Counted from the stretch's first letter, positions 7,675-36,675 are shown. The stretch is DNA of 36,675 bases from an uncultured Gammaproteobacteria bacterium (GCA_964416495.1 CAYQEI010000001.1:1-36675); one strand, 5' to 3'. A program made the numbers and translations. The notes: generated by a model from the letters alone, not told the origin.

Positions 7675-7680
7675 ATTTGT

Positions 7681-8946: not shown

Positions 8947-8950
8947 ATAT

Positions 8951-10079: not shown

Positions 10080-10104
10080 GATTTATTAATTTAGCAATAG
10101 AATT

Positions 10105-13664: not shown

Positions 13665-13671
13665 AATAGCT

Positions 13672-14202
13672 ATGTACTACACTGGTGCTGGTGATAAAGG
13701 CAAGACCAGATTGAATAATAGTAAAAGTTTGTCAAAATCTGAGCCTATCTTTGAACTTTTAGGTAGCTTAGATCAGTTAAATTCTCTTTGCGGTTTTAGT
13801 CGTAGTTTAACTGATGTCCCTCAAGAAATAAAAGACTCTCTGCTATTAAGACAAGAGGGTCTTTTTAGTTGTCAGGCTTATTTTGCTCGGAGTAAGTCAG
13901 AGTTAGCGCCAGATCTACTCAGTCGTTTAGAGCGTGACTTAGATGAAATCAGTTTGAAATTAAAGCCACGCCATTCTTTTGTTATTCCTGGTGGTAGTTT
14001 GTTAAGTGCTAGCTTAGATTTAGCTAGAACCCAGGCGCGCAGTTGTGAACGCTTAGCTCAAGCTTACTTGGCTACTAAGACTTGGCTACAAAAAGAGCTA
14101 ATGTTAGCCTACCTTAATCGCTTATCAAGTTACTTCTTTGTTTTGGCTCGCTATGCTAATGACTTAGCTGGAGTAGAGGAAGTCGGTCCCCGTTATAGTT
14201 AA
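13672..14202 (+). CDS. PduO-type ATP:cob(I)alamin adenosyltransferase
   Basis: The N-terminal YTGAGDKGKTRL matches the family YTktGDkGeT motif. Size is 176 aa with a helical-bundle-type sequence. Confidence 0.75.
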   Translation: MYYTGAGDKGKTRLNNSKSLSKSEPIFELLGSLDQLNSLCGFSRSLTDVPQEIKDSLLLRQEGLFSCQAYFARSKSELAPDLLSRLERDLDEISLKLKPRHSFVIPGGSLLSASLDLARTQARSCERLAQAYLATKTWLQKELMLAYLNRLSSYFFVLARYANDLAGVEEVGPRYS

Positions 14203-14211
14203 GATATGGGT

Positions 14212-14240
14212 TTGGCAAAGCTGTGAAATAATAGTATACT
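14212..14240 (+). promoter_or_regulatory. Sigma-70-like promoter
   Basis: TTGGCA (14212-14217), 17-nt spacer, TATACT (14235-14240). Confidence 0.45.
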
Positions 14241-14278
14241 TAAAACACAATGCTAATTAATTCATTAAGATAAAAAAT

Positions 14279-14557
14279 ATGTTAATAGAAGAAAGAGCAA
14301 ATCTAAGTGACAAAACATTAGATCTAAAAAGAGCAATTGACTCTTTACGTGAGGAAGTGGAAGCAGTAAATTACTACAATCAAAGAGCAGACTCAACTTC
14401 AGACCCTGAACTAAAACAAGTGTTGATTCACAATGCTAATGAAGAGAAAGAACACGCTGCTATGTTAATTGAGTGGATTAGAAAGAATGACCCAGTTTTT
14501 GCTAAGGAATTTGAAGACAATTTATTCAAAGAGGTGATAGATACTGATCACGAATAA
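14279..14557 (+). CDS. Encapsulated-ferritin (EncFtn) family ferritin-like protein, lacking a C-terminal targeting peptide
   Basis: REEVEAVNYYNQRADSTSDPELKQVLIHNANEEKEHAAMLIEWIRKNDPVFAKEF is nearly collinear with the EncFtn core as I remember it (EELEAVDWYxQR...HNRDEEKEHAAMxLEWLRRND). The protein ends 17 aa after NDP. Confidence 0.8.
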   Translation: MLIEERANLSDKTLDLKRAIDSLREEVEAVNYYNQRADSTSDPELKQVLIHNANEEKEHAAMLIEWIRKNDPVFAKEFEDNLFKEVIDTDHE

Positions 14558-25600: not shown

Positions 25601-25935
25601 GCCTTCAAATTTGCCAATCTCAGCGAAGATTTTTTTATAACGGTCACGATGGCGCTCTTACTTTAGGGGATAATGATTTGCCCAATGATAGCAATTGGCA
25701 TCATTTTACTCTTAGCTATGATTCCTATCGCTACCAACTATCTCTTTATATTGATGGTCAGCTAAAAAAGACTTTGCCCTATATTTGGTTAGCTAATTCT
25801 GAGAGCCTAACTAAACTTGAAATCTACAATGAGGGTAAAGAGGGTCAAATTGATGATTTAGCGTTATTTACCGGCGCATTAAGCTCAAAACAGGTGGCCC
25901 GTCTCTATCAAGGCACTTTTATTGACAAAAATTAG
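22642..25935 (+). CDS. Large secreted multidomain protein: permuted NlpC/P60-like (YiiX/YaeF-type) domain, lamin-tail domain and two LamG/concanavalin-like domains
   Basis: Signal peptide. HVGIYVG...VEAL...DWTCVGLVEKVYE shows His before Cys, i.e. the permuted papain-like order. IISKIYATGLNDFIELYNPNNFSFDL marks the LTD. WHHLALTVD...FDELTLWSSSLSATEVKEMY and WHHFTLSYD...IDDLALFTGALSSKQVARLY mark the two Laminin_G_3-like modules. Confidence 0.65.
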   Translation: MKAKFVSISITLFIIISLFCGETVKALELGALLYRTSGDGLMYGYSSQELLGIKAGVLLHIYPGHVGIYVGKENGVDMVVEALAGGIVKTEAKYFVNESAGEVFLGAKIPIGASPSERLKAVAIAKALAERNYGYDFDFIKQKGPGDNDWTCVGLVEKVYESSAIPNPNNLNDLVYSRLNYAVDITPDGFDNKSYFNNSGDCFSTSLEFSKISARANLVLPLPEKIGFNAGRIYQGERYFFLPYTQYLQTTLKSVPVDIQISSSFKEKEIRGKTPTLALILRWSFVNNPVSAVKLTFEKIGQGIKNIGDKLFNRESTDFDELAFYNSQPTEADSYLPININQSQGQTTPRNSPQANYSYNDNEEVNIGITNSKIETKVNNPSNQSSTGIKEEESSFFGPTVPINNNPSNSLIESSEPNFDFISEAEAPTQTAVIDSKVEQGEVPELAYSPESAPINQTTSTAVPSAIISKIYATGLNDFIELYNPNNFSFDLAEAGFRIEKTKTANDPSIAIRIGHEVDGIYPGGTTIRAKGYYLIVRDGANPYFLSRADAIAKRKEFSWTGNGYTLYLGKGAISSSDDPDIIDAVGFGSATYFRGQGPAPEIVDNYYLNRVSTNHDNLRDFRLEASADPSISWDDYIPANNDGDDDNQSGQEEPGGDETTNPDEGEFPDVVYEDADFEPYIPKAVINSPKLQEVWHFDECYGEAEYLVGVNDCSLHLDQHNTEFVFDLDSDFDSNQGSLSLYYRSTDDYYSSNFTVSLINKAGSSYEITISEELLTIAGLPNSAWRYYEKTVYEKSKLDWHHLALTVDQSAGVWRVYHNGKKLVEEQFAQTLISNFRQVKISGSGRLAFDELTLWSSSLSATEVKEMYDNELIFAPYTQREPQAEPALQYYWDFNEHYENVNGVSTNQAIDQIKGAVIDLPDNSYAWWGSDNTVLVSKYGKYLDSNLIEPFFSRDLTMAFWWRNASGISDDRTAIILGNQGRRLFGLQICQSQRRFFYNGHDGALTLGDNDLPNDSNWHHFTLSYDSYRYQLSLYIDGQLKKTLPYIWLANSESLTKLEIYNEGKEGQIDDLALFTGALSSKQVARLYQGTFIDKN

Positions 25936-26097: not shown

Positions 26098-26775
26098 ATG
26101 AAACATTTACCAACTATTGAAGAAATGCTCAAAGCTGGTATGCATTTCGGACATCGAACTAATCGCTGGCACCCAAAAATGAAAGACTATATTTTTACCA
26201 CAAAAAATAATGTCTACATTATTGACTTGAAAAAAAGTCAAGAAAAACTAAGAGAAGCCTTGGAGTTTATGGCTAAACTAAAAGCAGAGAAAAAAACTAT
26301 TCTGTTTGTTGGCACTAAGCACCAAGTTTCCGAGCCATTAAAGAAAATGGCTGAAGAGGTAAAGCAACCCTATATTGTCGGTAAGTGGCTAGGTGGATTT
26401 TTGACTAACTTTGCGGTTGTAAAGAAATCGGTCAAAAAGTATCAAGATTTACTGGAGAAAAAGGAGCTTGGTCGCTTAGAAAAATATACTAAGAAGGAAA
26501 GACTACAGTTTGATCGAGTTATTTACAAACTTAGAGAAAGAGTCGGTGGTTTAACTGATTTCAATAAATTACCTGATGCGCTCTTTATTTGGGATATTAA
26601 TGAAGAGAGAACAGCGGTGCGTGAAGCTAGGCAGAAGAATATTCCAATTATTGCTGTTTGCGATACTAATTCAAATCCTCAATTAGCTAATTATCCAATT
26701 CCAGCTAATGATGATGCTACTAAGACTGTTACATTAATCCTGACAGCAATTAAAAAGACCTTACAGTCTGCCTAA
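26098..26775 (+). CDS. rpsB: 30S ribosomal protein S2
   Basis: LKAGMHFGHRTNRWHPKM, FVGTK, LGGFLTNF and AVCDTNSNP motifs. Confidence 0.95.
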   Translation: MKHLPTIEEMLKAGMHFGHRTNRWHPKMKDYIFTTKNNVYIIDLKKSQEKLREALEFMAKLKAEKKTILFVGTKHQVSEPLKKMAEEVKQPYIVGKWLGGFLTNFAVVKKSVKKYQDLLEKKELGRLEKYTKKERLQFDRVIYKLRERVGGLTDFNKLPDALFIWDINEERTAVREARQKNIPIIAVCDTNSNPQLANYPIPANDDATKTVTLILTAIKKTLQSA

Positions 26776-26797
26776 TTAATTATTTAATTGTAATCTT

Positions 26798-27592
26798 ATG
26801 GAATTAATTAAAAAACTAAGAAACCTTACCCATGCTGGGATGGTTGATTGCCAAAAGGCCCTTAAAGAAGCTAACAATGACTTTGATTTAGCGGTTGATA
26901 TTTTACGTAAAAAGGGAATTAGCAAAGCCTCAAAACGAGCAGAACGAGAAGCAACTGAGGGTCTTATCCTTTGCACAGTTAATGAAGGTGCTACCGAAGG
27001 CTATATCCTTGAATTAAATAGTGAAACCGACTTCGTTGCCCGCAATGAAGAGTTTCAAGCTTTTGCTAATAAATTAATGACTCTTATCAAAACTGAACAA
27101 CCAGCAAAGTTAGATGATTTATTTGCGCTGAGCTTAGGGGAGCAAACTGTTGCTGATGCAGTTTCTAACTTGAGCGGAGTTATTGGAGAAAAAATTGAAT
27201 TAAACCGCTTTGCTATCGTCAAAGGTGAAACTGTTGCTAGCTATAGTCATCAAGCTGGTCGGATTGGTGTTTTGGTGGCTTTAGATAAGGCTGATCAGGC
27301 CGATTTAGCCCTTGATTTAGCAATGCATATTGCTGCTTCTAGTCCTAAGTATCTGCGTAGTGAAGAAGTGACAGAAGCTGAAATTGAGCATGAAAAGTCT
27401 ATTTATCGTGAACAATTACTCAATGAAGGTAAGCCCGAGGCAATGATTGATAAAATTAGTGAAGGCAAGCTTCAAAAGTTCTACAGCGAGATTTGCTTAC
27501 TAGACCAAGAATATATCAAAGATGACAAGAAAAAAGTCAAAGAAATACTAGGTGATACTAATATCTTGGCTTTTGTTAGATATTCGCTTTAA
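26798..27592 (+). CDS. tsf: Translation elongation factor Ts (short form)
   Basis: LIKKLRNLTHAGMVDCQKALKEANNDFDLAVDILRKKG UBA-like N-terminus, TDFVARNEEF, and the conserved rpsB-tsf gene order. Confidence 0.9.
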   Translation: MELIKKLRNLTHAGMVDCQKALKEANNDFDLAVDILRKKGISKASKRAEREATEGLILCTVNEGATEGYILELNSETDFVARNEEFQAFANKLMTLIKTEQPAKLDDLFALSLGEQTVADAVSNLSGVIGEKIELNRFAIVKGETVASYSHQAGRIGVLVALDKADQADLALDLAMHIAASSPKYLRSEEVTEAEIEHEKSIYREQLLNEGKPEAMIDKISEGKLQKFYSEICLLDQEYIKDDKKKVKEILGDTNILAFVRYSL

Positions 27593-27608
27593 CATCTAAT
27601 TTAACTAT

Positions 27609-28412
27609 ATGATTACTTGCCAGGTGCAATTTGCACCTTGGGATAAAATCTATAACTATACTACTAAACTAGACTCAAGTAATGTTGGGAAGTATGTTTT
27701 AGTGGAAACTGAATTAGGTGAAGAAATTGCTCGCATTATTAGCTTTGATTCGGTAAAGACTGAAGAGTCCTTACCTAAAGTAATTGCTCTAGCTAGTTAT
27801 GATGACTTAACCGAATTAGCTAGCTTAGCTGATAAGCAAAAGGCCTTGGAGTACTGTCAAGAGGCAATTGAGCGTTTAGCCCTACCGATGAAGTTAATCG
27901 ATGTTTATATTGCCAAAGGAGCAGTAAAATATAATTTTGCTTTCATGGCGGAAAATAGAGTTGACTTTCGTGAGTTAGTCAAAGATTTGGCTCTTTATTT
28001 TTCTGCCCAAGTTAGGCTAACTCAAATCGGGGCGCGAGATGAGGCCAAAGTGTTGGGTGATTGTGGTTCTTGTGGGCGGACTTTGTGTTGCCAGAGCTGT
28101 ATTGCAAAATTTAATTCAATTAGCTCTGAGATGGCTGAAGTGCAACAAGTTGTACATCGTGGCTCTGATCGTATTTCTGGGCTTTGTGGTCGCCTAATGT
28201 GCTGTCTTGCTTTTGAGTATGAAGGCTATAAACATTTAGCTGGTAAATTACCGCCAATTGGGACTAGACTGAGACTAGGAGAGCAAAGAGCTGAGGTGAT
28301 TGGACATAATATCTTGAAACAAACTGTCAATATCAAAGTTTTCCCCTTAGATCCTGATGAAAGAGCAATAATAATAGAGTTTGACCCGACCCAAGTTGCT
28401 CACCGAAAATAA
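27609..28412 (+). CDS. PSP1 domain protein (RicT/YaaT-like)
   Basis: VDFRELVKDLALYFSAQVRLTQIGARDEAKVLGDCGSCGRTLCCQS is the PSP1 C-terminal domain with its Cys cluster. Confidence 0.8.
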   Translation: MITCQVQFAPWDKIYNYTTKLDSSNVGKYVLVETELGEEIARIISFDSVKTEESLPKVIALASYDDLTELASLADKQKALEYCQEAIERLALPMKLIDVYIAKGAVKYNFAFMAENRVDFRELVKDLALYFSAQVRLTQIGARDEAKVLGDCGSCGRTLCCQSCIAKFNSISSEMAEVQQVVHRGSDRISGLCGRLMCCLAFEYEGYKHLAGKLPPIGTRLRLGEQRAEVIGHNILKQTVNIKVFPLDPDERAIIIEFDPTQVAHRK

Positions 28413-28428
28413 ATATTTTATTATTTTT

Positions 28429-28457
28429 ACTTGAAGGTTAGCCTTCAAGTTTTTTTA
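28429..28457 (+). terminator. Rho-independent terminator
   Basis: ACTTGAAGG (28429-28437), TTAG loop, CCTTCAAGT (28442-28450), then a T7 run. Confidence 0.75.
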
Positions 28458-28504
28458 TTATAAATATGTTATAATAGAAGATATTTAATAATTAATTTGT
28501 TTTT

Positions 28505-29518
28505 ATGAAAAAGATAAATATTGCTATCAATGGTTTTGGCCGAATTGGCCGTGGTGTTTTTCGCATAATTAGCCAATCTTATCCCCAAGTAAATATAGTG
28601 GCGATTAATGATTTAGCCCCTTTAGCTAACTTAGCTTATCTCCTCAAACATGATACTGCCTATGGTGCTTTCCCTGGTAGTGTCAAAGAAGGTTTTGGTG
28701 GGATAGTGGTAAAAGGGAAGAAGATTCCGGTTTACTCAGAGAAAAATCCAGCTGACTTACCTTGGGCTAAGCATAAAGTTGATGTTGTCTTGGAGTGTAC
28801 TGGAGTATTTCGTGATAAGGAAGGCCTTAGTCTACACCTAAAAGCTGGGGCTAAGAAAGTTGTTCTATCAGCACCAGCTAAATCAAGTGAGGTAAAAATG
28901 ATAGTTCTCGGTGTAAATGAGAAAAAACTCAAAGCGAGCGATCACCTTGTTTCCTGCGCATCTTGTACTACTAATTGCCTTGCTCCAGCAACTGAATTAT
29001 TACGCAAAAAATTTGGTATTAAAAAGGCAGTGATGAGCACTGTTCATGCCTATACTGCGGGACAAAATATAGTTGATGGGCCAAATAAAGATTTACGTCG
29101 TGGCCGAGCTGGTGCCTTAAATATCGTACCAACTACTACTGGTGCAGCCGAGGCAACTACTGCTATTATTCCTGAATTAGGACAGCGTTTTACAGGGATT
29201 TCTTTACGAGTTCCAGTTATTACTGGGTCTTTATGTGACAGTGTTTATTTACTCAAAAAGAAGACTGACTTTGCTACTATCGCTAATGCTTTTAGTCAAG
29301 CAGCTAAAACTAGCCTCAAAGGAATACTGGCGGTAAGCGATGACGGTTTAGTTAGTAGTGATATTATTGGTAGCCCCTATAGCACGGTAATTGATTTAGC
29401 CAGTTCAAGATTAATTGATGGCGATCTACTCAAACTTGTTTCTTGGTATGATAATGAATGGGGCTATTCTTGTCGTTTAATTGAGTTAGCAATAAATGTT
29501 TCTCAGTTTATTAAATAA
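28505..29518 (+). CDS. gap: Type I glyceraldehyde-3-phosphate dehydrogenase
   Basis: INGFGRIGR, the active-site SCASCTTNCLAP, and WYDNEWGYS. TGtTATAAT at 28467-28475. Confidence 0.92.
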   Translation: MKKINIAINGFGRIGRGVFRIISQSYPQVNIVAINDLAPLANLAYLLKHDTAYGAFPGSVKEGFGGIVVKGKKIPVYSEKNPADLPWAKHKVDVVLECTGVFRDKEGLSLHLKAGAKKVVLSAPAKSSEVKMIVLGVNEKKLKASDHLVSCASCTTNCLAPATELLRKKFGIKKAVMSTVHAYTAGQNIVDGPNKDLRRGRAGALNIVPTTTGAAEATTAIIPELGQRFTGISLRVPVITGSLCDSVYLLKKKTDFATIANAFSQAAKTSLKGILAVSDDGLVSSDIIGSPYSTVIDLASSRLIDGDLLKLVSWYDNEWGYSCRLIELAINVSQFIK

Positions 29519-29550
29519 TAAGTTTATTAATAATATAATTTATCAAATGT

Positions 29551-30288
29551 ATGAAGTTAAAAAATAAAGTTGCAATTGTTACTGGAGCCGCTTCAGGCTT
29601 GGGTTTAGGGATAGCTAACTTATTTGTCGAAGAGGGCGCTAAAGTAGTTTACTCAGATTTAGCAAAAGAACATCAAGACCTGGAACTAGACCCTAAAAAT
29701 GCAATTTACTTTCCCGCTGATGTTAGCTCACGGGAGGCAGTTGAGGCCTTAGTCGCTCAGGCAGAAGAACAGTTTGGCCGAGTCGATATCATGGTAAATA
29801 ACGCTGGTATTGGTGGCTTAGGTGGGATTTTGGAGGCTAGTGAAGAGGACTTTGATAGGACCATTAAAGTAAATCTCTATGGTGTTTTCCATGGTACTCA
29901 AGTAGCCGCTCAAACAATGAAGAAAATGGGAAATACAGGTTCAATTATTAATATGAGTTCGATCCTAGGGAACGTCGGCATGCCTCAAACTTTATCTTAT
30001 TGCAGTTCTAAGGGAGGAGTAGTACAGTTGACTCGAGCAGCTGCTCTTGACTTAGCGTTAGATAAAATAAGAGTTAATGCGATTGCGCCTGGTTTCATTA
30101 AGACCAATATGACCAGTGATGTTTTATTAGATAAAAACTTTAGTGAAATGGTTTTGACTAATACGCCTTTAGGTCATGTCGGTGAAGTTATTGACATTGC
30201 TCAAGCAGCACTGTATTTAGCTAGTGATGATTCTAAATATGTTACTGGTATTGTCTTGCCAGTTGATGGCGCTTGGACGGCTAGATAG
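29551..30288 (+). CDS. SDR-family NAD(P)-dependent oxidoreductase
   Basis: TGAASGLG cofactor motif, NNAG, catalytic S...YCSSK, and PGFIKT. Confidence 0.85.
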   Translation: MKLKNKVAIVTGAASGLGLGIANLFVEEGAKVVYSDLAKEHQDLELDPKNAIYFPADVSSREAVEALVAQAEEQFGRVDIMVNNAGIGGLGGILEASEEDFDRTIKVNLYGVFHGTQVAAQTMKKMGNTGSIINMSSILGNVGMPQTLSYCSSKGGVVQLTRAAALDLALDKIRVNAIAPGFIKTNMTSDVLLDKNFSEMVLTNTPLGHVGEVIDIAQAALYLASDDSKYVTGIVLPVDGAWTAR

Positions 30289-30294
30289 ATAATT

Positions 30295-31326
30295 ATGTTA
30301 GGGAATAAGGTTTTGCAAAAAAAAATCGAGCAATTCAATTTGCTGGGCCGGGGTGGAGCAAGCTGTCCAGTTTCTTTGAAGTGGAGGGCCTTCGAAGCTG
30401 AGCTTTCCGCTAATAAGTCGGCTTATCTCATTGTCAATGGAGCTGAGAGTGAACCGGATGTAATTAAAGATGCTTATATAATAAAAAATAAGACTAAGGA
30501 CTTATTGCTAGGACTTGAAGCAATTATAAACTTTATTGGCGCTAAATCCTTAATGAACATTTACATCTACCTCCCCAAGAGTTATTTAGCTTTCACTAAA
30601 AGAAAGCTCAAAGAAAGCTTGCGTGCAACGAAAGCTAATTTAGCTTGGTTTGAAAAAATCAAGTATTTTACTAAACCAGATTTAGGCCAATATATTGCTG
30701 GGGAAGAAACAGTTATTATCAATTTAATTAATCAAAAATTACAACGACCCAGCTTGAAGCCACCTTTTCCCTGTAGCCAGGGGATAAATTCGTTGCCGAC
30801 TTTAGTGCATAATGTCGAAACCATTCACGATATCGGCTTAGTGTCCCAATCTCGCTATCTGGGGAAAAGACATTATACTCTCGCTGGAGAATTACCTCAC
30901 CCTGGTGTTTATGCTCTTGATGCTAAGCTTAGTGTCAAAGATATTTTAGCTAAAACTAATAATACTCCTGATTTTCCTTATTTTTTAGTCTTAGGCGGTG
31001 GAGCACATAGTGTTGTGATAAACAGCAAGCAATTAGATGATACCGTTTGTGGCGCTGGCTTGGTTAAAGTAGTGAGGAATAATAAGACCCAACAAAAGGC
31101 TTTACTAAATTATTATTTGAATTTCTATAGTAATGATAGTTGTGGCTTATGCACCCCTTGCCGGGAAGGGAGTTATCGTCTCAAGGAGCTTTTCAAGCAA
31201 GGCAAGCTCCTTGATGAAAAGGCGCTCACTTTATTGGATAATCTTGAAATTAATAGTTTCTGTGGCCTAGGACCCGGCCTCGCTTCAAGCCTTAAATCGT
31301 TTATAAAAAATGTCTATACTAACTAA
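30295..31326 (+). CDS. NuoF/HydB-like flavoprotein (Complex I 51-kDa family), short form
   Basis: GRGGASCPVSLKW, NGAESEPDVIKD, YIAGEETVIINL, PPFPCSQGINSLPTLVHNVET and the N3-type cluster motif SCGLCTPCREG...FCGLG. Confidence 0.75.
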   Translation: MLGNKVLQKKIEQFNLLGRGGASCPVSLKWRAFEAELSANKSAYLIVNGAESEPDVIKDAYIIKNKTKDLLLGLEAIINFIGAKSLMNIYIYLPKSYLAFTKRKLKESLRATKANLAWFEKIKYFTKPDLGQYIAGEETVIINLINQKLQRPSLKPPFPCSQGINSLPTLVHNVETIHDIGLVSQSRYLGKRHYTLAGELPHPGVYALDAKLSVKDILAKTNNTPDFPYFLVLGGGAHSVVINSKQLDDTVCGAGLVKVVRNNKTQQKALLNYYLNFYSNDSCGLCTPCREGSYRLKELFKQGKLLDEKALTLLDNLEINSFCGLGPGLASSLKSFIKNVYTN

Positions 31327-31334
31327 ACAAAATT

Positions 31335-32075
31335 ATGTCTCAAGCAAATAAGAGTCAGTCAAAACCAAACTCAATTTTAGCTAATTTTGATTATGCAGTT
31401 GATCTTTGGCAGAAGAATTTCAAGAAATTTGCTAGCCTAATCTTAACTGCGCTTCGTCGTAGCTTGCTCCCTTTTATTATTGCTTTAGCAATTAATTATG
31501 GCAGAAGCTTTGCCTATCTTGGCCCAATTATTATTCAATGGATCCTGTTGCTACTGTATTTAGTTGCTTTTGTTTTTATCTTTTATCAAATTATTAAACT
31601 CGAGCTCCAGATTTATTTAGCCGTAAAAGCTAATTATAGTTTCAAGCGGGAAGAGCTTGAGAAGCAAGCGAAAGAATTAATCAAGCCCTATATTGTGTTA
31701 AAGTTAATAATTGGTCTAGTAGTAGCCCTAGGACTAAGCTTATTCCTTATTCCTGGCTTAGTGCTTTCATTCTTTTTAATCTTTGCCCCCTATTACTTTG
31801 TCTTTAAGGCCAATGATGTCAAACAAGCTATTAAATCTAGCCTTTCCTTAGTAAAAAAGAATTGGCTCTATCTCCTCAAAGCCTTTTTATTCCTGATGCT
31901 ATGCCTTTTTGCTTTTTCAATGATAAGCTCATTACCCCTTACTCAATTAGTTCCTAACAGTATTACCACTTCAGGCTACAAATTATTTTTGACAGTGTTA
32001 GCCTTATTCATTTCCCCTATCATCATCATTTATTTTGCTAGGATTTTCTATAGATTTGAAAAATTAAGTAAATAA
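31335..32075 (+). CDS. Polytopic membrane protein, hypothetical
   Basis: 246-aa ORF with about 5-6 hydrophobic segments. No family recognised. It sits between the flavoprotein and the hydrogenase-like gene with 8- and 7-nt gaps. Confidence 0.5.
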   Translation: MSQANKSQSKPNSILANFDYAVDLWQKNFKKFASLILTALRRSLLPFIIALAINYGRSFAYLGPIIIQWILLLLYLVAFVFIFYQIIKLELQIYLAVKANYSFKREELEKQAKELIKPYIVLKLIIGLVVALGLSLFLIPGLVLSFFLIFAPYYFVFKANDVKQAIKSSLSLVKKNWLYLLKAFLFLMLCLFAFSMISSLPLTQLVPNSITTSGYKLFLTVLALFISPIIIIYFARIFYRFEKLSK

Positions 32076-32082
32076 TGAGGCC

Positions 32083-33648
32083 ATGATTACCGTCTATATT
32101 GATAATAAAAAATATCAAGCAAAAAAAGGCCAAACTATTATCTCGCTTTTACTGGAAGCAAAGATTGATTTGGCTTTTTTAGCCTATCACCCTGATTTAG
32201 ATAATTTAGGTGGTGATCGGATAGCCTTAGTTGAAATTGGAGATAACCAGCGCATTGTTAATGCTGAAACCACTAAAGTTTACCCGCAACTAAAAATTTA
32301 TACTGAAACTGAATTAGTCAAGAAGTATCGAAAAGCTAATGCTGAGCTTTTATTTGCTTCTCATAGTGAAAAGTGCGCTACTTGTACTAGACGTTTTAAT
32401 TGTGGACTCTTGTCTCTTGCCCGTCGTGATGGTCTCAATATTGCTACCTACCCAGATCGTAAGTTAAAGCGAAAGACCTTCAAAATTGATCACGCTATCG
32501 AAATAGATAGTAGTCAATGTATTGACTGTGGTAACTGTATTCAAGCTTGCCAGCGTCAAGGCATTAATTACCTTGAATATACTAATACTGCCCACAAGCA
32601 AGAGTTAAGGCCGAGTAGTGATAAAACTAAGATCTGCCTACATTGTGGTCAATGCACTCTAGTTTGTCCAGTTGCCTCAGCTCAAGAACAAGATCAGTGG
32701 GCTCAAGTTGAGACTCTTTTAGCTGACCCAAAAGCAGAAGTTGTCGCTTTACTTGACCCAGCTAGTCGTGTTAGTTTAGGGGAAGCTTTCCAGCTCAGAC
32801 ATAGTGATAGTCAAGATAGTGTTTATTTAGCTTTAGCTAAACTAGGCTTTAGGGATAGCTACGACTTAGCTTTGGGAGCAGAGATGTTAAGTCAAAGAGA
32901 GGCCAAAGAGTTGCTAGAGCGGAAAGAAGCTAAGCAGAAATTGCCTTTAATTAGTAGCGCTTGCCCAGCCTGGTCGCGATATCTAGAGCATTATCAGCCT
33001 AAATTAAAGCCTTATTTGGCTAAATCTAGATCAGCTCAATTATTGCTAGCTCAAGACTTAAGGGCTAATTACAAGACAGCTAAGGACAAAGAGCTTAAGC
33101 TAGTTTCTATCGTTGCTTGTCCTGCTAAAAAGGAAGAAGTCTTAGCTAAGAAGAGCTTTCAGGCTGGGAAGCCTTTGATTGATAATGTTATTACTTTAAG
33201 AGAGTTAGTCTTTATGCTAAAAAAAAGAGATCTGGACTTAGCTAAGCTTAAGGTTAAGCAAACTAAGGTCAAACCAGTCAAACTCAGTGCGATTTCAGCC
33301 CATAGTGGTGGCTTGACTGAGCTGTTAATTAGTAATATATTACAACTAAAAAGTGTGGCTAAAGAGACCCGGAAAAAGATGTTAAGGAATACTCGCTTGC
33401 TTTTGTCTCAAAATGATGGCTTTATCGAACTAAATTTAGAGATTGCTCAAGCAAAATACAGCTTTGCTTGTTTTAATGGTAATGCTAGCTTTATTGAGAG
33501 CAAGGCTGATTGCAGGCAGTATGATTATATTGAAGTGATGGCTTGCCCTGGAGGTTGTCTTGGGGGCGGGGGACAAATCATTCCGACTACTAAGGAGATA
33601 ATTAGCCAGCGTCAAGTTGCTAATTATCGTCTCAGTTTAATCAAATAG
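32083..33648 (+). CDS. [FeFe]-hydrogenase-like protein: Cys-less 2Fe-2S-fold domain, His-ligated 4Fe-4S, 2x[4Fe-4S] and H-cluster domain
   Basis: HSEKCATCTRRFNC (HxxxCxxCx5C), CIDCGNCIQAC and CLHCGQCTLVCP. H-cluster motifs are ISSACPAW (P1 variant), VACPAKKEE (P2) and EVMACPGGCLGGGGQI (P3). Confidence 0.8.
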   Translation: MITVYIDNKKYQAKKGQTIISLLLEAKIDLAFLAYHPDLDNLGGDRIALVEIGDNQRIVNAETTKVYPQLKIYTETELVKKYRKANAELLFASHSEKCATCTRRFNCGLLSLARRDGLNIATYPDRKLKRKTFKIDHAIEIDSSQCIDCGNCIQACQRQGINYLEYTNTAHKQELRPSSDKTKICLHCGQCTLVCPVASAQEQDQWAQVETLLADPKAEVVALLDPASRVSLGEAFQLRHSDSQDSVYLALAKLGFRDSYDLALGAEMLSQREAKELLERKEAKQKLPLISSACPAWSRYLEHYQPKLKPYLAKSRSAQLLLAQDLRANYKTAKDKELKLVSIVACPAKKEEVLAKKSFQAGKPLIDNVITLRELVFMLKKRDLDLAKLKVKQTKVKPVKLSAISAHSGGLTELLISNILQLKSVAKETRKKMLRNTRLLLSQNDGFIELNLEIAQAKYSFACFNGNASFIESKADCRQYDYIEVMACPGGCLGGGGQIIPTTKEIISQRQVANYRLSLIK

Positions 33649-33652
33649 TATT

Positions 33653-35089
33653 ATGGAGATACCAATTTACGTTTTAGATACCCTAAAAACATTACAAACG
33701 GACAATAAGCTAGCTTACTTAGTTGGTGGCTGTGTGCGTGATTTGTTAATGGGGAAAAAACCACTAGATTGGGACATCACTACCAGTGCTAAACCAGCTG
33801 AGATTTTAGCTCTTTTCCCAGAAGCTAAATATGAAAATGATTTTGGTACAGTTTTGTTGCCAATTAAAAAAAACAATGAATTACTCACTGTTTTAGAGAT
33901 TACTACTTTTCGCAGTGAGTCAAACTACCAAGATAAACGTCATCCTAAAAATGTTCAATTTGAAACTGAGCTTGAGTTAGATTTAGCGCGACGTGACTTT
34001 ACCATTAACGCCATTGCTCTTAACCCCTTAGCTGAAAATGAAATTATTGATTTATATGGTGGCCAAAAAGATATTAAAGCTAAGATAGTCCGAGCTATTG
34101 GTGAGCCAAGTGATCGTTTTCGTGAAGATGCCCTGCGTTTAATGCGAGCAGTTAGATTTTGTACTCAACTTGGTTTTGAGCTTGAACCAAAGACAGAAAG
34201 AGCGATAATAAAATTAGCTGGTGCCATTAAATTCATTGCTCAAGAAAGAATTAGAGATGAATTAATTAAAATATTGGCCTCAGATCATCCCAGTGAGGGC
34301 ATCGAGAGTTTACGTCAACTCAAACTACTGCAATATATTATCCCTGAATTAGAGTTAGGATTAAAGGTCAAGCAAGACCGGCATCATATTTACCCAGTCT
34401 ATAAACACAATCTGCTTTCACTCAAGCATTGCCCGAGCCCTAAGTGGCAGGTAAGGCTCTCAGCTCTACTCCATGATATTGGTAAGCCCAAAACGAAAAG
34501 AATTATAAATCAAATTGCAACTTTCTATAATCACGAATATGTCGGCGCTAAAATGGCTGAGAGGATAATGAAGAGATTGCGTTTTAGTAAAAAAGATACT
34601 GATTTAGTGGTAAATTTGATTAAAAACCATATGTTTTATTATAATGTTGGTGAGGTTACCGCTGCTTCAGTTAGACGACTGATAGTTAAAGTAGGTAATG
34701 ATAACTTGAAAGATTTAATGGACCTAAGAATTGCTGATCGCTTGGGTTCAGGCACACCAAAAGCTAAACCATATAAGTTAAGGCATTTAGAATATATGAT
34801 TGAAAAGGTGCAACATGATCCAATTTCTGCTAAAATGCTAGCTATCAATGGTGATGATTTAATTAAGGAACTCAAACTTGAGCCTAGCCCCAAAATTGGA
34901 GCGATATTAGACATCATCTTAGCTAAAGTGATTAGCGAGCCAGAATTAAATGAAAGAAAAAAATTATTAACTTTAGCTAAATCTTTAGAAAAGAAAGATT
35001 TAGCTAGCCTCAGAACTGAGGCTAAAGAATTAATTTCTGGGAAAAGGGAAGAGGAAGATAAAAATATTAAAGCGAAATTTAAAGTCTAA
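33653..35089 (+). CDS. cca: CCA-adding tRNA nucleotidyltransferase with HD domain
   Basis: LVGGCVRDLLMGKKPLDWDITT, RDFTINA, EDALRLMRAVRF and HDIGKP motifs. Confidence 0.88.
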   Translation: MEIPIYVLDTLKTLQTDNKLAYLVGGCVRDLLMGKKPLDWDITTSAKPAEILALFPEAKYENDFGTVLLPIKKNNELLTVLEITTFRSESNYQDKRHPKNVQFETELELDLARRDFTINAIALNPLAENEIIDLYGGQKDIKAKIVRAIGEPSDRFREDALRLMRAVRFCTQLGFELEPKTERAIIKLAGAIKFIAQERIRDELIKILASDHPSEGIESLRQLKLLQYIIPELELGLKVKQDRHHIYPVYKHNLLSLKHCPSPKWQVRLSALLHDIGKPKTKRIINQIATFYNHEYVGAKMAERIMKRLRFSKKDTDLVVNLIKNHMFYYNVGEVTAASVRRLIVKVGNDNLKDLMDLRIADRLGSGTPKAKPYKLRHLEYMIEKVQHDPISAKMLAINGDDLIKELKLEPSPKIGAILDIILAKVISEPELNERKKLLTLAKSLEKKDLASLRTEAKELISGKREEEDKNIKAKFKV

Positions 35090-35093
35090 TTAT

Positions 35094-35690
35094 ATGAAAA
35101 AAAATATTAAATTGTACCTTATTTTATTAATCGCAGGTCTCAGTTTAAGTGCCTGCTCTAATTCTAATTCTATGCGAACTTTAGATAACCAGGAAGACTT
35201 AGCCAAGAAATATAGTCAAGCTATAGTCTCTACCAATTTGGGTGATTTTACCCTCAAATTCTACAGTGATGATTCACCGATTACGGTGAATAATTTCCTT
35301 AACCTAGCTCAAGCTGGTTTTTATGAACAGACCAAGTTTCACCGAGTGATTGAAGGTTTTATGATTCAAGGTGGTGACCCAAACAGCAAAGGAGATGATA
35401 TCAGAACCTATGGCACTGGTTCACCTGGCTATAAATTTGCTGATGAATTCAATGATCATAAGTTGGTAGCAGGCAGTTTAGCCATGGCTAACTCCGGCCC
35501 TAACAGTAATGGTTCTCAATTCTTTATTGTGACTGCTCCCCAGACGGCTTACTTAGATGGCGTTCATACTAATTTCGGTTATGTTAGTGAAGGTTTTGAA
35601 GTGGTTAAGGCAATTGAAGCGGTGGCTACTAATGAGTTTGATATGCCTTTGGAGCCAGTAGTAATTAATTCAATAACTTTAGTTAAATAA
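35094..35690 (+). CDS. Cyclophilin-type peptidyl-prolyl cis-trans isomerase, lipoprotein
   Basis: LSAC lipobox, FHRVIEGFMIQGGDP and LAMANSGPNSNGSQFFI. Confidence 0.9.
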   Translation: MKKNIKLYLILLIAGLSLSACSNSNSMRTLDNQEDLAKKYSQAIVSTNLGDFTLKFYSDDSPITVNNFLNLAQAGFYEQTKFHRVIEGFMIQGGDPNSKGDDIRTYGTGSPGYKFADEFNDHKLVAGSLAMANSGPNSNGSQFFIVTAPQTAYLDGVHTNFGYVSEGFEVVKAIEAVATNEFDMPLEPVVINSITLVK

Positions 35691-36675
35691 ATGAAAGTCT
35701 ATTTAGATAATGCTGCGACAACAGCGATTGCGAAGCCTGTTTTGGCTAAGATGATGCCGTATTTGACTGATAACTTTGCTAACCCTTCTTCAATTCATAA
35801 TCCGGGCCGGGCTGCTAATGTGGTGTTAGAGAAGCAGAGAGCTTTAGTGGCTCAGCTTTTGGGGGTTGATAAGGCTGGCATCTATTTTACTGGTAGTGCC
35901 ACTGAGGCTAATAATTTAATCCTTACTGGTGTTGCCCAAGCCTATCAGTCAAAGGAGAAGAAGAGGATTATAATCTCTCAAATTGAGCACCCTAGTGTCA
36001 GTGAAGTTGCTAAACGTTTAGCTAAGCAGGGAATTAAGGTAGATTACTTAGCGGTTGATAGTAATGGAGTTGCGAGCTACAAAGATTTAGAGCAAATGAT
36101 GGGTGAGGATGTTTTGTTGGTTTCGGTCATGACAGTTAATAATGAGCTTGGCTCAATTGCGCCTCTTAAAAAAATGGCTACTTTAGCGCATAAATATAAA
36201 GCTTTTTTCCATAGTGATGCTGTCCAATCTATTCCTTACTTTAATGTATTAAGTTTAGGCGTAGATTTTGCCAGCTATTCTGCTCATAAGTTTGCAGGCC
36301 CCAAAGGAGTTGGCTTAGCCTACATTAATCCTGAAATTAGAATTCCTGGATTAATTATTGGTGGAGGTCAAGAAAAGAATTTACGCGCTGGAACCTATAA
36401 TCTTGCTAACATTGTTGGCTTGGCTCAAGCCCTCAAGCTGTCTTTAGCTAAAAAAGATCAGCAAATTAAGAAGTTAAAGGACTTAAGGGAGTACTTCATC
36501 TCCGCCATTAAAACTAACTTTCCTGAAGTGAAACAAAATGGTAGTAAAACAAGCTCAGTTCCTGGGATAGTGAATTTAATGTTTCCCTATATTGAAGGGG
36601 AAGCTATTTTAATGGATTTATCAGCTCAAGGAATATCAGTCTCAACTGGCTCAGCTTGCTCTGCCACTGATTTGC
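35691..36675 (+). CDS. Cysteine desulfurase (NifS/IscS class V aminotransferase), truncated at the 3-prime window edge
   Basis: My own translation gives MKVYLDNAATTAIAKPVL...FTGSATEANNL...FHSDAVQS...SAHKFAGPKGVGLAYI...STGSACSA. This includes the PLP-Lys motif SAHK and the active-site Cys loop. The ATG directly follows the previous TAA. The ORF is open to the end of the window and is not in the supplied track. Confidence 0.85.
   Translation, partial: MKVYLDNAATTAIAKPVLAKMMPYLTDNFANPSSIHNPGRAANVVLEKQRALVAQLLGVDKAGIYFTGSATEANNLILTGVAQAYQSKEKKRIIISQIEHPSVSEVAKRLAKQGIKVDYLAVDSNGVASYKDLEQMMGEDVLLVSVMTVNNELGSIAPLKKMATLAHKYKAFFHSDAVQSIPYFNVLSLGVDFASYSAHKFAGPKGVGLAYINPEIRIPGLIIGGGQEKNLRAGTYNLANIVGLAQALKLSLAKKDQQIKKLKDLREYFISAIKTNFPEVKQNGSKTSSVPGIVNLMFPYIEGEAILMDLSAQGISVSTGSACSATDL

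What the first reader, a model, noticed from the sequence alone, without database searches (positions are those of the whole stretch)
32083..33648. [FeFe]-hydrogenase-like protein with a cluster-less N-terminal ferredoxin fold and Ala at the proton-relay Cys
The three H-cluster motifs are present, but P1 reads ISSACPAW instead of TSCCPxW. The first Cys (the proton-relay residue next to the bridging amine) is Ala (codon 293, nt 32959-32961), while the cluster-ligating Cys is kept. P2 reads VACPAKKEE (Met-Pro replaced by Val-Ala). The N-terminal ~85 residues align to the plant-type 2Fe-2S domain of NuoG/HydA (ITVYIDNKKYQAKKGQTII...LAYHPD...GGDRIALVEI) but contain no cysteine at all, so that cluster cannot form. 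The His-ligated 4Fe-4S and both ferredoxin-type 4Fe-4S motifs are intact. From memory, loss of the relay Cys is typical of slow, putatively sensory [FeFe] hydrogenases. This protein has no PAS or signalling domain, so it does not fit the groups I know.
Basis: partly seen in the sequence, partly recalled or inferred. Interest (0 to 1): 0.7.

Follow-up and report, generated by a model that had tools for sequence, protein, structure and literature searches.

The report
Hydrogenase relative with dismantled active site
A small-genome (Patescibacteria-type) bacterium carries a descendant of a hydrogen-producing [FeFe] hydrogenase that keeps its iron-sulfur wiring but has lost its proton-relay residues, its C-terminal tail and much of the pocket for the catalytic di-iron centre, so it probably no longer makes hydrogen efficiently; related bacteria show similar changes in separate lineages.

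Summary
ORF 32083-33648 encodes a 521-aa HydA-like protein with P1 ISSACPAW (Ala293, GCT, at the CpI Cys299 position), P2 VACPAKKEE, a Cys-free N-terminal ferredoxin fold, and every ligand of three accessory [4Fe-4S] clusters and of [4Fe-4S]H.

- The C-terminal small-subunit-like tail, which carries the CpI His569 equivalent, is absent.
- Further pocket and proton-path residues are changed: A230D, S319A, S320K, P324A, P354A, F417S, G418A, V423L, M424T.
- The gene is the syntenic orthologue of a Patescibacteria group-A [FeFe] hydrogenase (GAPDH-SDR-short NuoF-like-membrane protein-HydA-CCA).

The protein breaks 31 of 122 family-invariant columns (median relative: 1). The excess lies in the H-domain; the Fe-S domains and the NuoF-like partner evolve normally. 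Relay Cys is invariant in 198 close relatives.

Asp at position 230 paired with a non-Cys relay recurs in other accelerated HydA-like lineages, two of them confirmed in similar NuoF-like/membrane gene modules.

Best reading (confidence about 0.5): a selected, Nar1-like Fe-S redox protein that has lost efficient H2 catalysis. Main rival: a slow hydrogenase with an alternative proton route. HydEFG presence could not be tested. It is a new variant of a known kind, of moderate interest.

The parts
32083..33648 (+). HydA-like gene, 521 aa, domain order ferredoxin fold / His-ligated 4Fe-4S / two 4Fe-4S / H-domain, with no small-subunit-like tail
   Evidence: AF2 mean pLDDT 86.7; Foldseek TM 0.85-0.88 to CpI
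32083..32322 (+). N-terminal 2Fe-2S-type ferredoxin fold without any Cys (Ala34, Asp45, Ala48, Glu62 at the four ligand positions; motif GGDRIALVEI at 32209-32238)
   Evidence: PF13510 E=8e-11; pLDDT 90-97; the same Cys-less motif occurs in P0002-P0006, L014 and L015
32362..32403 (+). [quoted passage not shown]
32518..32667 (+). Two intact ferredoxin-type CxxCxxCxxxC motifs (Cys146-156, Cys185-195)
32755..32757 (+). Asp225 (GAC) at the position of CpI Ala230, which lines the di-iron pocket and is invariant Ala in 119/119 relatives
   Evidence: Asp at 230 goes with a non-Cys relay; A230 lies near the 2Fe subcluster (PMC5506873, PMC10147833)
32950..32973 (+). P1 motif ISSACPAW; Ala293 (32959-32961) replaces the proton-relay Cys, and Cys294 (cluster ligand) is kept
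33019..33024 (+). Ala313-Lys314 at CpI Ser319-Ser320, two proton-pathway hydroxyl residues (Thr in 119/119 relatives and Thr/Ser in 114/119)
   Evidence: roles of S319 and S320: PMC11803613 and bioRxiv 10.64898/2026.09.22.753672
33112..33138 (+). P2 motif VACPAKKEE: Cys346, Lys349 and Glu352 kept; Met353 to Val (as in 43/119 relatives); invariant Pro354 to Ala345
33271..33321 (+). Remodelled, shortened pocket loop KPVKLSAISAHSGGLTE (CpI 408-425): Phe/Tyr417 to Ser, Gly418 to Ala, Val423 to Leu, Met424 to Thr; it overlaps the least confident stretch of the H-domain model
   Evidence: pLDDT 55-66 for residues 391-410
33532..33576 (+). P3 motif EVMACPGGCLGGGGQ, intact (Met486, Cys488, Cys492)
33577..33648 (+). 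Short C-terminus of 23 residues after P3, then TAG; the roughly 45-residue small-subunit-like tail with the CpI His569 equivalent is missing, and the next gene starts 4 nt later
30295..31326 (+). Short NuoF-like flavoprotein (343 aa; FMN/NADH and CxxCxxC...C motifs kept), the conserved partner gene of the module
   Evidence: only 3 of 56 family-invariant columns are changed
31335..32075 (+). UPF0259/YciC-like membrane protein between the NuoF-like and HydA-like genes; homologous genes sit at the same place in L004, L009, L012 and L097
28505..30288 (+). Type I GAPDH and SDR (glucose-1-dehydrogenase-type) genes that head the tightly packed gene run; a terminator-like hairpin lies just upstream at 28429-28450

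Best explanation
The gene is the orthologue of the NADH-linked, group-A-type [FeFe] hydrogenase that Patescibacteria keep in a conserved GAPDH-SDR-NuoF-like-(membrane)-HydA block. In this lineage it has been converted into a hydrogenase-like iron-sulfur protein. It still folds like HydA and should still bind three accessory [4Fe-4S] clusters and the [4Fe-4S] half of the H-cluster site. However, the catalytic proton pathway is altered from the relay Cys through the two Ser positions, and the tail that carries the surface His has been deleted. About a third of the invariant H-domain positions, including half of the residues lining the di-iron pocket, have been replaced. I infer that it no longer carries out fast H2 turnover and most likely lacks a normal [2Fe]H subcluster. 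On this reading it works, like eukaryotic Nar1/NARFL, as an Fe-S redox or electron-transfer protein. Asp225 may pair with the retained Lys349 in the otherwise empty, positively charged cavity. Shown here: ancestry, residue changes, domain-specific acceleration, retention of ligands, recurrence in other lineages. Inferred: loss of [2Fe]H and of activity, the role of Asp225, and the present physiological partner.
For: 1. Ancestry. The gene order matches L004, L007, L009, L010, L012 and L013. Relatives pass the NCBIfam group A cut-off and score best against 'NADH-dependent group A6'.
2. Outlier status. 31 of 122 family-invariant columns are broken, against a median of 1. The NJ terminal branch is 0.366, against 0.02-0.16 for the other Patescibacteria sequences. 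No relative above 46% identity exists among 5.8e9 clusters, and none above 37% for the H-domain among 1.84e9 representatives.
3. The acceleration is confined to the catalytic domain. The ratio of the query's identity to relatives over the identity among relatives is 0.76-0.79 for the Fe-S domains, close to about 0.85 for CCA and GAPDH, but 0.55 for the H-domain. Invariants changed: 4/44 in the F-domain against 24/77 in the H-domain, Fisher p=0.007. The NuoF-like partner changes only 3/56.
4. Selective retention. All 16 accessory-cluster ligands and all four [4Fe-4S]H Cys are kept. The ORF is intact and compact, has an SD-like motif, and occurs in three further independent assemblies. The AF2 model is confident, with TM 0.85-0.88 to CpI.
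5. Proton path. C299A, S319A and S320K are present and the tail with the His569 equivalent is gone. C299A variants show reduced H2 turnover (PMC11803613). S320A and H569A variants are strongly impaired (bioRxiv 10.64898/2026.09.22.753672).
6. Pocket. Of the 14 residues listed in the literature, A230, C299, P324, P354, F417 and V423 leave the family-invariant state (PMC10147833).
7. Nar1 parallel. Neolecta NARFL (P0268) keeps P324, P354, K358, E361, M497 and the Cys ligands but differs at 230, 299, 417, 418, 423 and 424, the same six positions changed here. Nar1 lacks [2Fe]H and hydrogenase activity (PMC12621388).
8. Recurrence. Asp230 occurs in 6 of 148 diverse H-domain representatives, all six with a non-Cys relay and none among the 125 with a Cys relay (p=7.7e-6, uncorrected for phylogeny). 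P0209 and P0139 sit next to NuoF-like and membrane genes. F-domain identities place the query with different relatives than P0209, P0139 and P0270. Short tails go with remodelled pockets.
Against: Several residues whose best-known roles concern [2Fe]H or proton transfer are retained: Lys349 (K358), Glu352, Met486 (M497), Gln319, Glu273, Glu276 and Arg280. This is expected for a working H-cluster, although NARFL keeps most of them too. Group C and D enzymes lack the relay Cys yet bind the H-cluster and turn over H2 slowly. No maturase information exists for this genome. No biochemical data exist. The Asp-Lys pairing could not be measured because the modelling tool returns no coordinates. The strain variants are too similar for a dN/dS estimate.
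Confidence: 0.5

Rival explanations
1. It is still a true [FeFe] hydrogenase with a complete H-cluster, but a slow or strongly biased one (a sensor-like or 'trickle' enzyme). It would use a different proton route, with Asp225, perhaps through a water molecule occupying the space freed by Ala293, taking over from Cys299.
For: All H-cluster Cys ligands are kept, as are Lys349, Glu352, Met486, Gln319 and the internal Glu273, Glu276 and Arg280. Natural Ala at the relay position is compatible with H-cluster binding and slow turnover in groups C and D (PMC10407848, PMC11803613). Asp230 appears specifically where the relay Cys is lost, and the mildest case, P0270, has an Asp230/His299 pair in an otherwise canonical pocket with the tail His present, which looks like a substitute relay. 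The NuoF-like partner remains conserved.
Against: The changes go far beyond the relay: P324A, P354A, F417S, G418A, V423L, M424T, a shortened pocket loop and the lost tail. The Glu proposed as the group D relay is absent: Leu411 sits at the inferred Val423 position. That equivalence is my inference from motif spacing. Other Asp230 proteins have lost K358, the proton-path Glu residues or even Cys300, which does not look like preserved catalysis. The N-terminal [2Fe-2S], which in HydABC lies on the path to the flavoprotein (PMC9499530), is gone.
Confidence: 0.3
2. It is a decaying gene under relaxed selection, a remnant of a hydrogenase that the lineage no longer needs, with no present function.
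For: The branch is long and many invariant positions are lost. The tail is lost. The only two differences from the other strains in this gene are both nonsynonymous (N467I, E505K), and 5 of 6 differences over about 9.8 kb fall in the NuoF-like and HydA-like genes. Only one 90% cluster of this type exists, with 7 member sequences.
Against: After about 55-60% amino-acid divergence there is no stop codon or frameshift in 521 codons. All 20 remaining Fe-S ligands are conserved. The Fe-S domains evolve at the housekeeping rate. The tail deletion is clean, with a 4-nt gap to the next gene. The AF2 model is confident. The same ORF is present in the window and in three further independent assemblies. 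Small Patescibacteria genomes usually delete useless genes; this last point is general knowledge, not tested here.
Confidence: 0.12
3. It is an assembly or sequencing artefact or a chimera, and the real gene is a normal hydrogenase.
For: The source is metagenomic, and this is the only cluster of its kind.
Against: The same 1566-nt ORF, with 2 nt differences from the window, is found in contigs from three different samples and two assembly pipelines, with the same neighbours. Going from Cys to the Ala codon needs two base changes. The deviations are spread over the whole H-domain.
Confidence: 0.02

Closest known systems
Patescibacteria clade of group A [FeFe] hydrogenases (NCBIfam best match NF040763, 'NADH-dependent [FeFe] hydrogenase, group A6'), encoded next to a short NuoF-like flavoprotein
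   Same: Same genomic position and neighbours. Same domain order up to P3. Same accessory-cluster and [4Fe-4S]H ligands. 44-47% identity overall and about 0.55-0.59 in the Fe-S domains. It shares the Cys-less N-terminal domain (GGDR motif) with the P0002-P0006 subclade.
   Different: Relay Cys, Thr319, Thr/Ser320, Ala230, Pro324, Pro354, Tyr/Phe417, Gly418, Val423 and Met424 are changed. The PF02256 tail is absent. It scores 239 bits against 431-446 on TIGR02512 (cut-off 405.95). 31 of 122 invariants are broken.
Putative sensory [FeFe] hydrogenases, group C (TmHydS) and group D (TamHydS)
   Same: Ala at the CpI Cys299 position and an incomplete group-A proton pathway (PMC10407848, PMC11803613).
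   Different: No PAS domain, and an N-terminal 2Fe-2S-type fold plus His-ligated cluster that I recall those groups as lacking (their architecture was not checked here). Met497 is kept. No Glu at the inferred position of TamHydS E252. Glu279 and Arg286 are kept, whereas TamHydS has Phe and Lys. By synteny and Fe-S-domain similarity it derives from a group A clade, so the resemblance is convergent.
Eukaryotic Nar1 / NARFL / CIAO3 (hydrogenase-like CIA factor)
   Same: The H-domain keeps the four [4Fe-4S] Cys, Lys358, Glu361 and Met497 but has a non-Cys residue at 299 and differs at 230, 417, 418, 423 and 424. This comes from comparison with Neolecta NARFL P0268. Nar1 has no [2Fe]H and no hydrogenase activity (PMC12621388).
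   Different: This protein is bacterial and evolved independently. It keeps three accessory clusters and the ferredoxin fold. It keeps neither Pro324 nor Pro354, which NARFL retains. It has no C-terminal Trp targeting signal (it ends ...SLIK). It is linked to a NuoF-like flavoprotein, not to a CIA machinery.
Engineered CpI variants C299A (6GLY), S319A (6GM4), and S320A and H569A
   Same: The query naturally combines these substitutions. The two best PDB sequence matches are the C299A and S319A mutants, because they share the query's residues.
   Different: The laboratory variants are single changes in an otherwise intact enzyme with a full H-cluster. The query carries about 25 further changes at invariant H-domain positions and lacks the tail.
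Other derived HydA-like proteins seen here (P0270/P0294, P0209, P0139/P0273; also P0295, P0316, P0319, P0337)
   Same: They are M3-type HydA-like proteins of the same sequence family. P0270, P0294, P0295 and P0337 carry NCBI Patescibacteria or 'bacterium' labels, while P0209, P0139, P0273, P0316 and P0319 are unnamed. NuoF-like and membrane genes stand next to P0209 and P0139. Asp occupies position 230 in P0270/P0294, P0209, P0139/P0273, P0295 and P0316 (P0319 has Ser and P0337 Val). The relay Cys is replaced in P0270/P0294, P0209 and P0139/P0273. Residues 417/418 are altered in all of them. The tail is short in P0316, P0319 and P0337.
   Different: They keep the N-terminal [2Fe-2S] Cys. Their Fe-S domains group with other relatives (P0123, P0016) than the query's, so the similar end state was reached separately. 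Their relay residues differ (His, Asn, Gln), and P0295, P0316, P0319 and P0337 still have the relay Cys.

Membership tests
[FeFe] hydrogenase, group A (prototypical) | H-domain fold (PF02906) | tested here: met
   PF02906 at 175.8 bits; AF2 pLDDT 86.7; Foldseek TM 0.85-0.88 to CpI
[FeFe] hydrogenase, group A (prototypical) | Four Cys ligating [4Fe-4S]H and bridging to [2Fe]H (CpI C300, C355, C499, C503) | tested here: met
   Cys294, 346, 488 and 492
[FeFe] hydrogenase, group A (prototypical) | P1 motif TSCCPxW with the proton-relay Cys (C299) | tested here: not met
   ISSACPAW, Ala293; Cys in 119/119 and 79/79 relatives
[FeFe] hydrogenase, group A (prototypical) | P2 motif MPCxxKxxE | tested here: inconclusive
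   VACPAKKEE: Cys, Lys and Glu kept; Met to Val also occurs in 43/119 relatives; invariant Pro to Ala
[FeFe] hydrogenase, group A (prototypical) | P3 motif ExMxCxxGCxxGGGQ | tested here: met
   EVMACPGGCLGGGGQ
[FeFe] hydrogenase, group A (prototypical) | Complete proton-transfer pathway (C299, E279, S319, E282, R286, plus S320 and the tail His569) | tested here: not met
   E273, E276 and R280 kept; C299A, S319A, S320K; the His569 region is deleted
[FeFe] hydrogenase, group A (prototypical) | C-terminal small-subunit-like domain (PF02256) | tested here: not met
   No PF02256 hit; the protein ends 23 residues after P3. The relatives inspected (all of 565 aa or more in the alignments) carry the tail, and nearly all 119 listed homologues have a precomputed PF02256 hit
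[FeFe] hydrogenase, group A (prototypical) | Curated family score (NCBIfam TIGR02512, cut-off 405.95) | tested here: not met
   239 bits for the query against 431-446 for P0004, P0011 and P0047
[FeFe] hydrogenase, group A (prototypical) | HydE, HydF and HydG maturases in the genome | not testable with these tools
   None in the 36.7-kb window and none within 10 kb of HydA in about 90 related loci. Absence would not be decisive (PMC11216029)
[FeFe] hydrogenase, group A (prototypical) | H2 evolution or uptake activity with an H-cluster spectroscopic signature | not testable with these tools
   Needs experiment
NADH-dependent HydA-NuoF-like hydrogenase (A6-like) | Adjacent NuoF-type flavoprotein with FMN/NADH and [4Fe-4S] motifs | tested here: met
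   Gene 30295-31326
NADH-dependent HydA-NuoF-like hydrogenase (A6-like) | HydA N-terminal [2Fe-2S] cluster linking the flavoprotein to the [4Fe-4S] chain | tested here: not met
   No Cys in residues 1-97. The chain H-A1-A2-A3-B2-FMN is given in PMC9499530; that A3 is the N-terminal 2Fe-2S follows by elimination and by complex I homology (my inference)
Group C/D putative sensory [FeFe] hydrogenases | Relay Cys replaced, mostly by Ala | tested here: met
   Ala293; PMC10407848
Group C/D putative sensory [FeFe] hydrogenases | PAS domain (group C) and/or an atypical C-terminal [4Fe-4S] domain | tested here: not met
   No such Pfam or NCBIfam hit, and the protein ends 23 residues after P3; these features are described in PMC13104023 (abstract seen)
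Group C/D putative sensory [FeFe] hydrogenases | Group D alternative relay Glu (TamHydS E252) and replaced Met353/Met497 | tested here: not met
   Leu411 at the inferred equivalent (CpI V423, from S249/E252 against T420/V423 spacing, my inference); Met486 kept
Group C/D putative sensory [FeFe] hydrogenases | Phylogenetic placement in groups C/D | tested here: not met
   It is a syntenic orthologue of Patescibacteria group A genes, and its Fe-S domains are closest to P0002, P0004 and P0005
Nar1/NARFL family | H-domain with the [4Fe-4S] site kept but the relay Cys lost and no [2Fe]H | tested here: inconclusive
   The residue pattern parallels Neolecta NARFL at positions 230, 299, 417, 418, 423 and 424; cofactor content is untested
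Nar1/NARFL family | Eukaryotic CIA component with a C-terminal Trp and common descent with NARF | tested here: not met
   Bacterial synteny; it ends ...RLSLIK; nearest relatives are bacterial HydA

The most novel reading that the evidence does not exclude
Patescibacteria have converted their NADH-linked [FeFe] hydrogenase, in several separate lineages, into a distinct class of H-domain protein. Its marks are Asp at CpI position 230, loss of the relay Cys, a remodelled 417-424 loop and often loss of the tail. Such a class would either hold a different cofactor in the former di-iron cavity (for example an Asp-bound Fe or Fe-S species next to [4Fe-4S]H, as proposed for the [2Fe-2S] found in Nar1) or use an Asp-based proton relay. 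That would make it a bacterial counterpart of the hydrogenase-to-Nar1 transition, and the window protein would be its most derived known member.
Probability: 0.25. Interest if true: 0.75.

Novelty: new variant of a known kind. Interest (0 to 1): 0.5.

Why it matters
1. Annotation. Genes like this pass Pfam and are routinely counted as fermentative H2-evolving hydrogenases in metabolic reconstructions of CPR/Patescibacteria. This one, and several others found here, probably should not be counted that way.

2. Enzyme mechanism. It is a natural combination of changes that hydrogenase chemists make one at a time (C299A, S319A, S320 and His569 loss), embedded in a group A scaffold. The association between Asp230 and a non-Cys relay points to a specific, testable second-sphere position.

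3. Evolution. It offers a bacterial, recent and repeatedly sampled model of how a hydrogenase turns into a non-hydrogenase Fe-S protein. For Nar1 in eukaryotes that step happened long ago and left no intermediates. Here the intermediates exist: P0295 and P0316 have Asp230 with the Cys kept; P0270 has Asp/His; P0209, P0139 and the window protein are heavily remodelled.

Tried and rejected
1. dN/dS on strain variants. L001-L003 differ from the window by only 2 nt in the gene, which is too few. The next relative is at 46% identity, so synonymous sites are saturated.

2. Maturase search. There are no HydE/F/G-like ORFs in the window or within 10 kb of HydA in about 90 loci; the only radical-SAM-like ORFs did not look like HydE or HydG on reading (two resemble an AmmeMemoRadiSam-type enzyme; not run against a family library). 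I tried to obtain maturase sequences from plasmid-borne hydA loci (none adjacent). I recovered a HydG fragment through E. coli ThiH and PDB 4WCX. I ran no further search on it, because only the best 120 hits are listed and those would be Firmicutes. The window's species is not among the GTDB r232 representatives (best match 46% identity), so its genome could not be located.

3. NJ tree. It places the query basal to the whole clade. I treat this as long-branch attraction, because synteny, the shared GGDR motif and F-domain identities place it with P0002-P0006.

4. Group D-type alternative relay. Rejected, because Leu sits at the inferred Glu position.

5. Pseudogene and artefact readings. Judged unlikely; see the rival explanations.

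6. Distances from Asp225 to Lys349 and to the adt position could not be measured, because the structure tool returns no coordinates.

7. Literature searches for [FeFe] hydrogenases or HydEFG in CPR, Patescibacteria or Falkowbacteria found nothing specific.
Full report
**Observation.** ORF 32083-33648 (+) encodes 521 residues, has a GAGG 6-9 nt before the ATG and ends in TAG; the next gene starts 4 nt later. Pfam finds Fer2_4, NADH-G_4Fe-4S_3, a 4Fe-4S dicluster domain and Fe_hyd_lg_C. It finds no Fe_hyd_SSU (PF02256) and no PAS or signalling domain.
- P1 is ISSACPAW, with Ala293 encoded by GCT at 32959-32961.
- P2 is VACPAKKEE and P3 is EVMACPGGCLGGGGQ.
- The first Cys is Cys98.
- His94/Cys98/101/107 and both CxxCxxCxxxC motifs are intact.

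The placement of Ala293 at CpI Cys299 is ungapped and identical in phmmer, MAFFT and HMM alignments. Tellingly, the two best PDB sequence matches are the engineered CpI C299A (6GLY) and S319A (6GM4) mutants. The same ORF occurs in contigs from three other samples with 2 nt differences, so it is not an artefact.

I mapped the protein onto CpI and onto 119 nearest homologues. It also has:
- Asp225 at Ala230
- Ala313 at Ser319 (Thr in 119/119 relatives)
- Lys314 at Ser320
- Ala318 at Pro324
- Ala345 at Pro354
- Ser405 at Phe/Tyr417
- Ala406 at Gly418
- Leu411 at Val423
- Thr412 at Met424
- a pocket loop shortened by three residues

The protein stops 23 residues after P3. It therefore lacks the roughly 45-residue small-subunit-like tail that the close relatives carry. 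That tail holds the equivalent of CpI His569 (His in 102/119 relatives). The residues kept are the four [4Fe-4S]H Cys, Lys358, Glu361, Met497, Gln325, Glu279, Glu282 and Arg286.

In a leave-one-out count the protein breaks 31 of 122 family-invariant columns, against a median of 1. It scores 239 bits on NCBIfam TIGR02512 (cut-off 405.95), a model its relatives pass with 431-446 bits. An AF2 model is confident (pLDDT 86.7, pTM 0.88) and superposes on CpI with TM 0.85-0.88. Its weakest H-domain stretch (residues 391-410) overlaps the remodelled loop.

**Ancestry.** The nearest relatives are only 44-47% identical. Where labelled, they are named Patescibacteria, Falkowbacteria, Paceibacterota or Saccharimonadales. 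They sit in the same gene block: rpsB-tsf-PSP1-GAPDH-SDR-short NuoF-like-(UPF0259 membrane protein)-HydA-CCA-PPIase-NifS-NifU. The window gene is therefore the positional orthologue of a group A hydrogenase. The best model is 'NADH-dependent, group A6'.

The Cys-less N-terminal domain is not unique to this protein. P0002-P0006 and the GTDB loci L014 and L015 have Ser/Asp/Ala-or-Ser/Glu-or-Asp at the four ligand positions and the same GGDR[IV][AS]L motif, yet they keep a fully canonical H-domain and tail. The window species is not among the GTDB r232 representatives.

**Where the divergence lies.**
- Between the window and four syntenic relatives, housekeeping neighbours are 64-71% identical but HydA only 44-47%. 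Among those relatives HydA is 63-73% identical when CCA is 75-81%.
- By domain, the ratio of the query's identity to relatives over the identity among relatives is 0.76-0.79 for the three Fe-S domains, the same as for housekeeping genes, but 0.55 for the H-domain.
- Invariant columns changed: 4/44 in the F-domain against 24/77 in the H-domain (p=0.007).
- The NuoF-like partner has only 3 conservative changes in 56 invariant columns.
- A full HMMER scan of 1.84 billion representatives with the H-domain finds nothing above 37% identity outside its own cluster.

So one domain, the catalytic one, has been released from or shifted in its constraint. The ORF, all remaining metal ligands, the fold and the partner gene are maintained. 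That argues against plain pseudogene decay.

**Meaning of the changes.** The literature read here states the following:
- C299 is the entry of the group A proton pathway. It is naturally Ala in groups C and D, which are slow, putatively sensory enzymes (PMC10407848, PMC11803613).
- C299A variants lose H2 turnover (PMC11803613).
- S320 and the tail His569 are needed for high activity (bioRxiv 10.64898/2026.09.22.753672).
- A230, I268 and M353 lie next to the 2Fe subcluster, and A230, P231, S232, S323, P324, P354, F417 and V423 form its cavity (PMC5506873, PMC10147833).

The query has therefore altered the proton path from the relay Cys through Ser319 and Ser320, has lost the tail that carries the surface His, and has changed about half of the cavity. 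It has no Glu at the position I infer, from S249/E252 against T420/V423 spacing, to match the group D relay.

Retention of Lys358, Glu361 and Met497 does not prove a di-iron site. A genuine Nar1-family protein recovered in the scan (Neolecta NARFL, P0268) keeps them as well. It differs from hydrogenases at 230, 299, 417, 418, 423 and 424, the same six positions changed in the query. Nar1 lacks [2Fe]H and hydrogenase activity (PMC12621388).

**Recurrence.** Among 148 diverse H-domain representatives, the relay is Cys in 125. Asp at position 230 occurs in six, all with a non-Cys relay (His, His, Gln, Asn, Thr, Ala). None of the 125 Cys-relay proteins has Asp230 (p=7.7e-6, not corrected for relatedness).
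- Two of the six, P0209 and P0139, lie directly downstream of a short NuoF-like gene and a membrane-protein gene. In L097 GAPDH is also present and the membrane protein is homologous to the window's.
- A third, P0270, is from Patescibacteria and is the mildest case. Its relatives include Asp230 forms that still have the relay Cys (P0295, P0316) and truncated forms of 525-544 aa with altered 417/418 (P0316, P0319, P0337).
- F-domain identities put the window protein with the Cys-less P0002/4/5 group (0.55). They put P0209, P0139 and P0270 with other relatives (0.39-0.44 to the query). All of their H-domains are accelerated and dissimilar from one another.

The Asp230 / relay-loss / tail-loss state has therefore been reached at least twice, and probably more often.

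**Mechanism.** I favour, at about 0.5, a hydrogenase turned Fe-S redox protein without efficient H2 catalysis and probably without a normal [2Fe]H. In this reading Asp225 compensates the charge of Lys349 in the vacated cavity; that last point is inference only.

The main rival, at about 0.3, is a slow hydrogenase in which Asp225, directly or through water, replaces Cys299. The Asp230/His299 pair of P0270 makes this plausible for the mild forms. The heavier remodelling in the query makes it less plausible here.

A further open point concerns wiring. In HydABC the chain from FMN to the H-cluster runs B2-A3-A2-A1, with the His-ligated A4 off the path (PMC9499530). A3 is, by elimination and by complex I homology, the N-terminal [2Fe-2S]. 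The whole Cys-less subclade should therefore be poorly wired to its NuoF-like neighbour, yet it keeps that neighbour. How electrons enter these proteins is unknown.

**Limits.** Maturases could not be assessed. None lie in the window or within 10 kb of HydA in about 90 loci, and whole genomes are out of reach. Their absence would not be decisive anyway (PMC11216029). No selection statistic was possible. The trees are NJ only. The association test ignores phylogeny. No coordinates were available for distance measurements.

**Verdict.** It is a new variant of a known kind, with interest about 0.5.

Noticed in passing
window 32083-32322; P0002-P0006; L014, L015: The Cys-less 2Fe-2S-type domain (ligands replaced by Ser/Ala, Asp, Ala/Ser, Glu/Asp; motif GGDR[IV][AS]L) is shared with sister proteins that have a fully canonical H-domain. 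By homology with HydABC and complex I, the lost cluster is the link to the NuoF-like flavoprotein, so how this whole subclade receives electrons is unexplained.
   Followed up: partly
window 26098-36675; L004, L007, L009, L010, L012, L013: The block rpsB-tsf-PSP1-GAPDH-(SDR)-short NuoF-like-(UPF0259 membrane)-HydA-(TM1266-like in L012 and L013)-CCA-PPIase-NifS-NifU is very conserved across Patescibacteria. The window ends inside the NifS-like gene (35691 onward).
   Followed up: partly
proteins P0129/P0270, P0139, P0209, P0214, P0227, P0234: Asp at CpI position 230 is found only together with a non-Cys relay residue among 148 diverse H-domain representatives. The cases include a Thermoguttaceae cluster (P0234, 22 members) that also replaces the cluster-ligating Cys300 by Ser, and a 1093-aa HydA-CysJ-like fusion (P0214) with Lys358 replaced by Ala.
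   Followed up: partly
protein P0121: A 4122-aa protein with seven H-domain-like stretches ranked second in the representative scan. I did not examine it.
   Followed up: no
window 30295-33648 against L001: Five of the six nucleotide differences between the window and strain variant L001 over about 9.8 kb fall in the NuoF-like gene (3) and the HydA-like gene (2, both nonsynonymous: N467I and E505K).
   Followed up: partly
window 1744-2821: An HTH_3 plus SocA/Panacea antitoxin-domain gene (1744-2433) is overlapped by 11 nt by a 132-aa ORF (2423-2821) with no Pfam hit. This looks like a toxin-antitoxin pair.
   Followed up: no
window 9567-10650: Two tandem lipoprotein paralogues (9567-10079 and 10138-10650), both with lipoprotein-like N-termini; the first has a Pfam META domain hit, the second was judged similar by reading its translation only.
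   Followed up: no
window 11361-14557; L009 1-1682: A B12-dependent (RTPR-type) ribonucleotide reductase, a Cob_adeno_trans-type gene and a 92-aa EncFtn-like gene form a trio that is conserved in L009. No encapsulin shell gene lies next to it.
   Followed up: no
window 22642-25935; L001, L010, L011: A 1097-aa LTD/Laminin_G_3 protein (with a Peptidase_C92 hit in L010 and L011) is kept near this block in related genomes. It is probably a cell-surface protein.
   Followed up: no
window 7105-9493: By reading the translations only, this is a LexA-like repressor followed by a DinB-type polymerase and a DUF488 gene (DUF488 confirmed by Pfam). It may be an SOS cassette.
   Followed up: no
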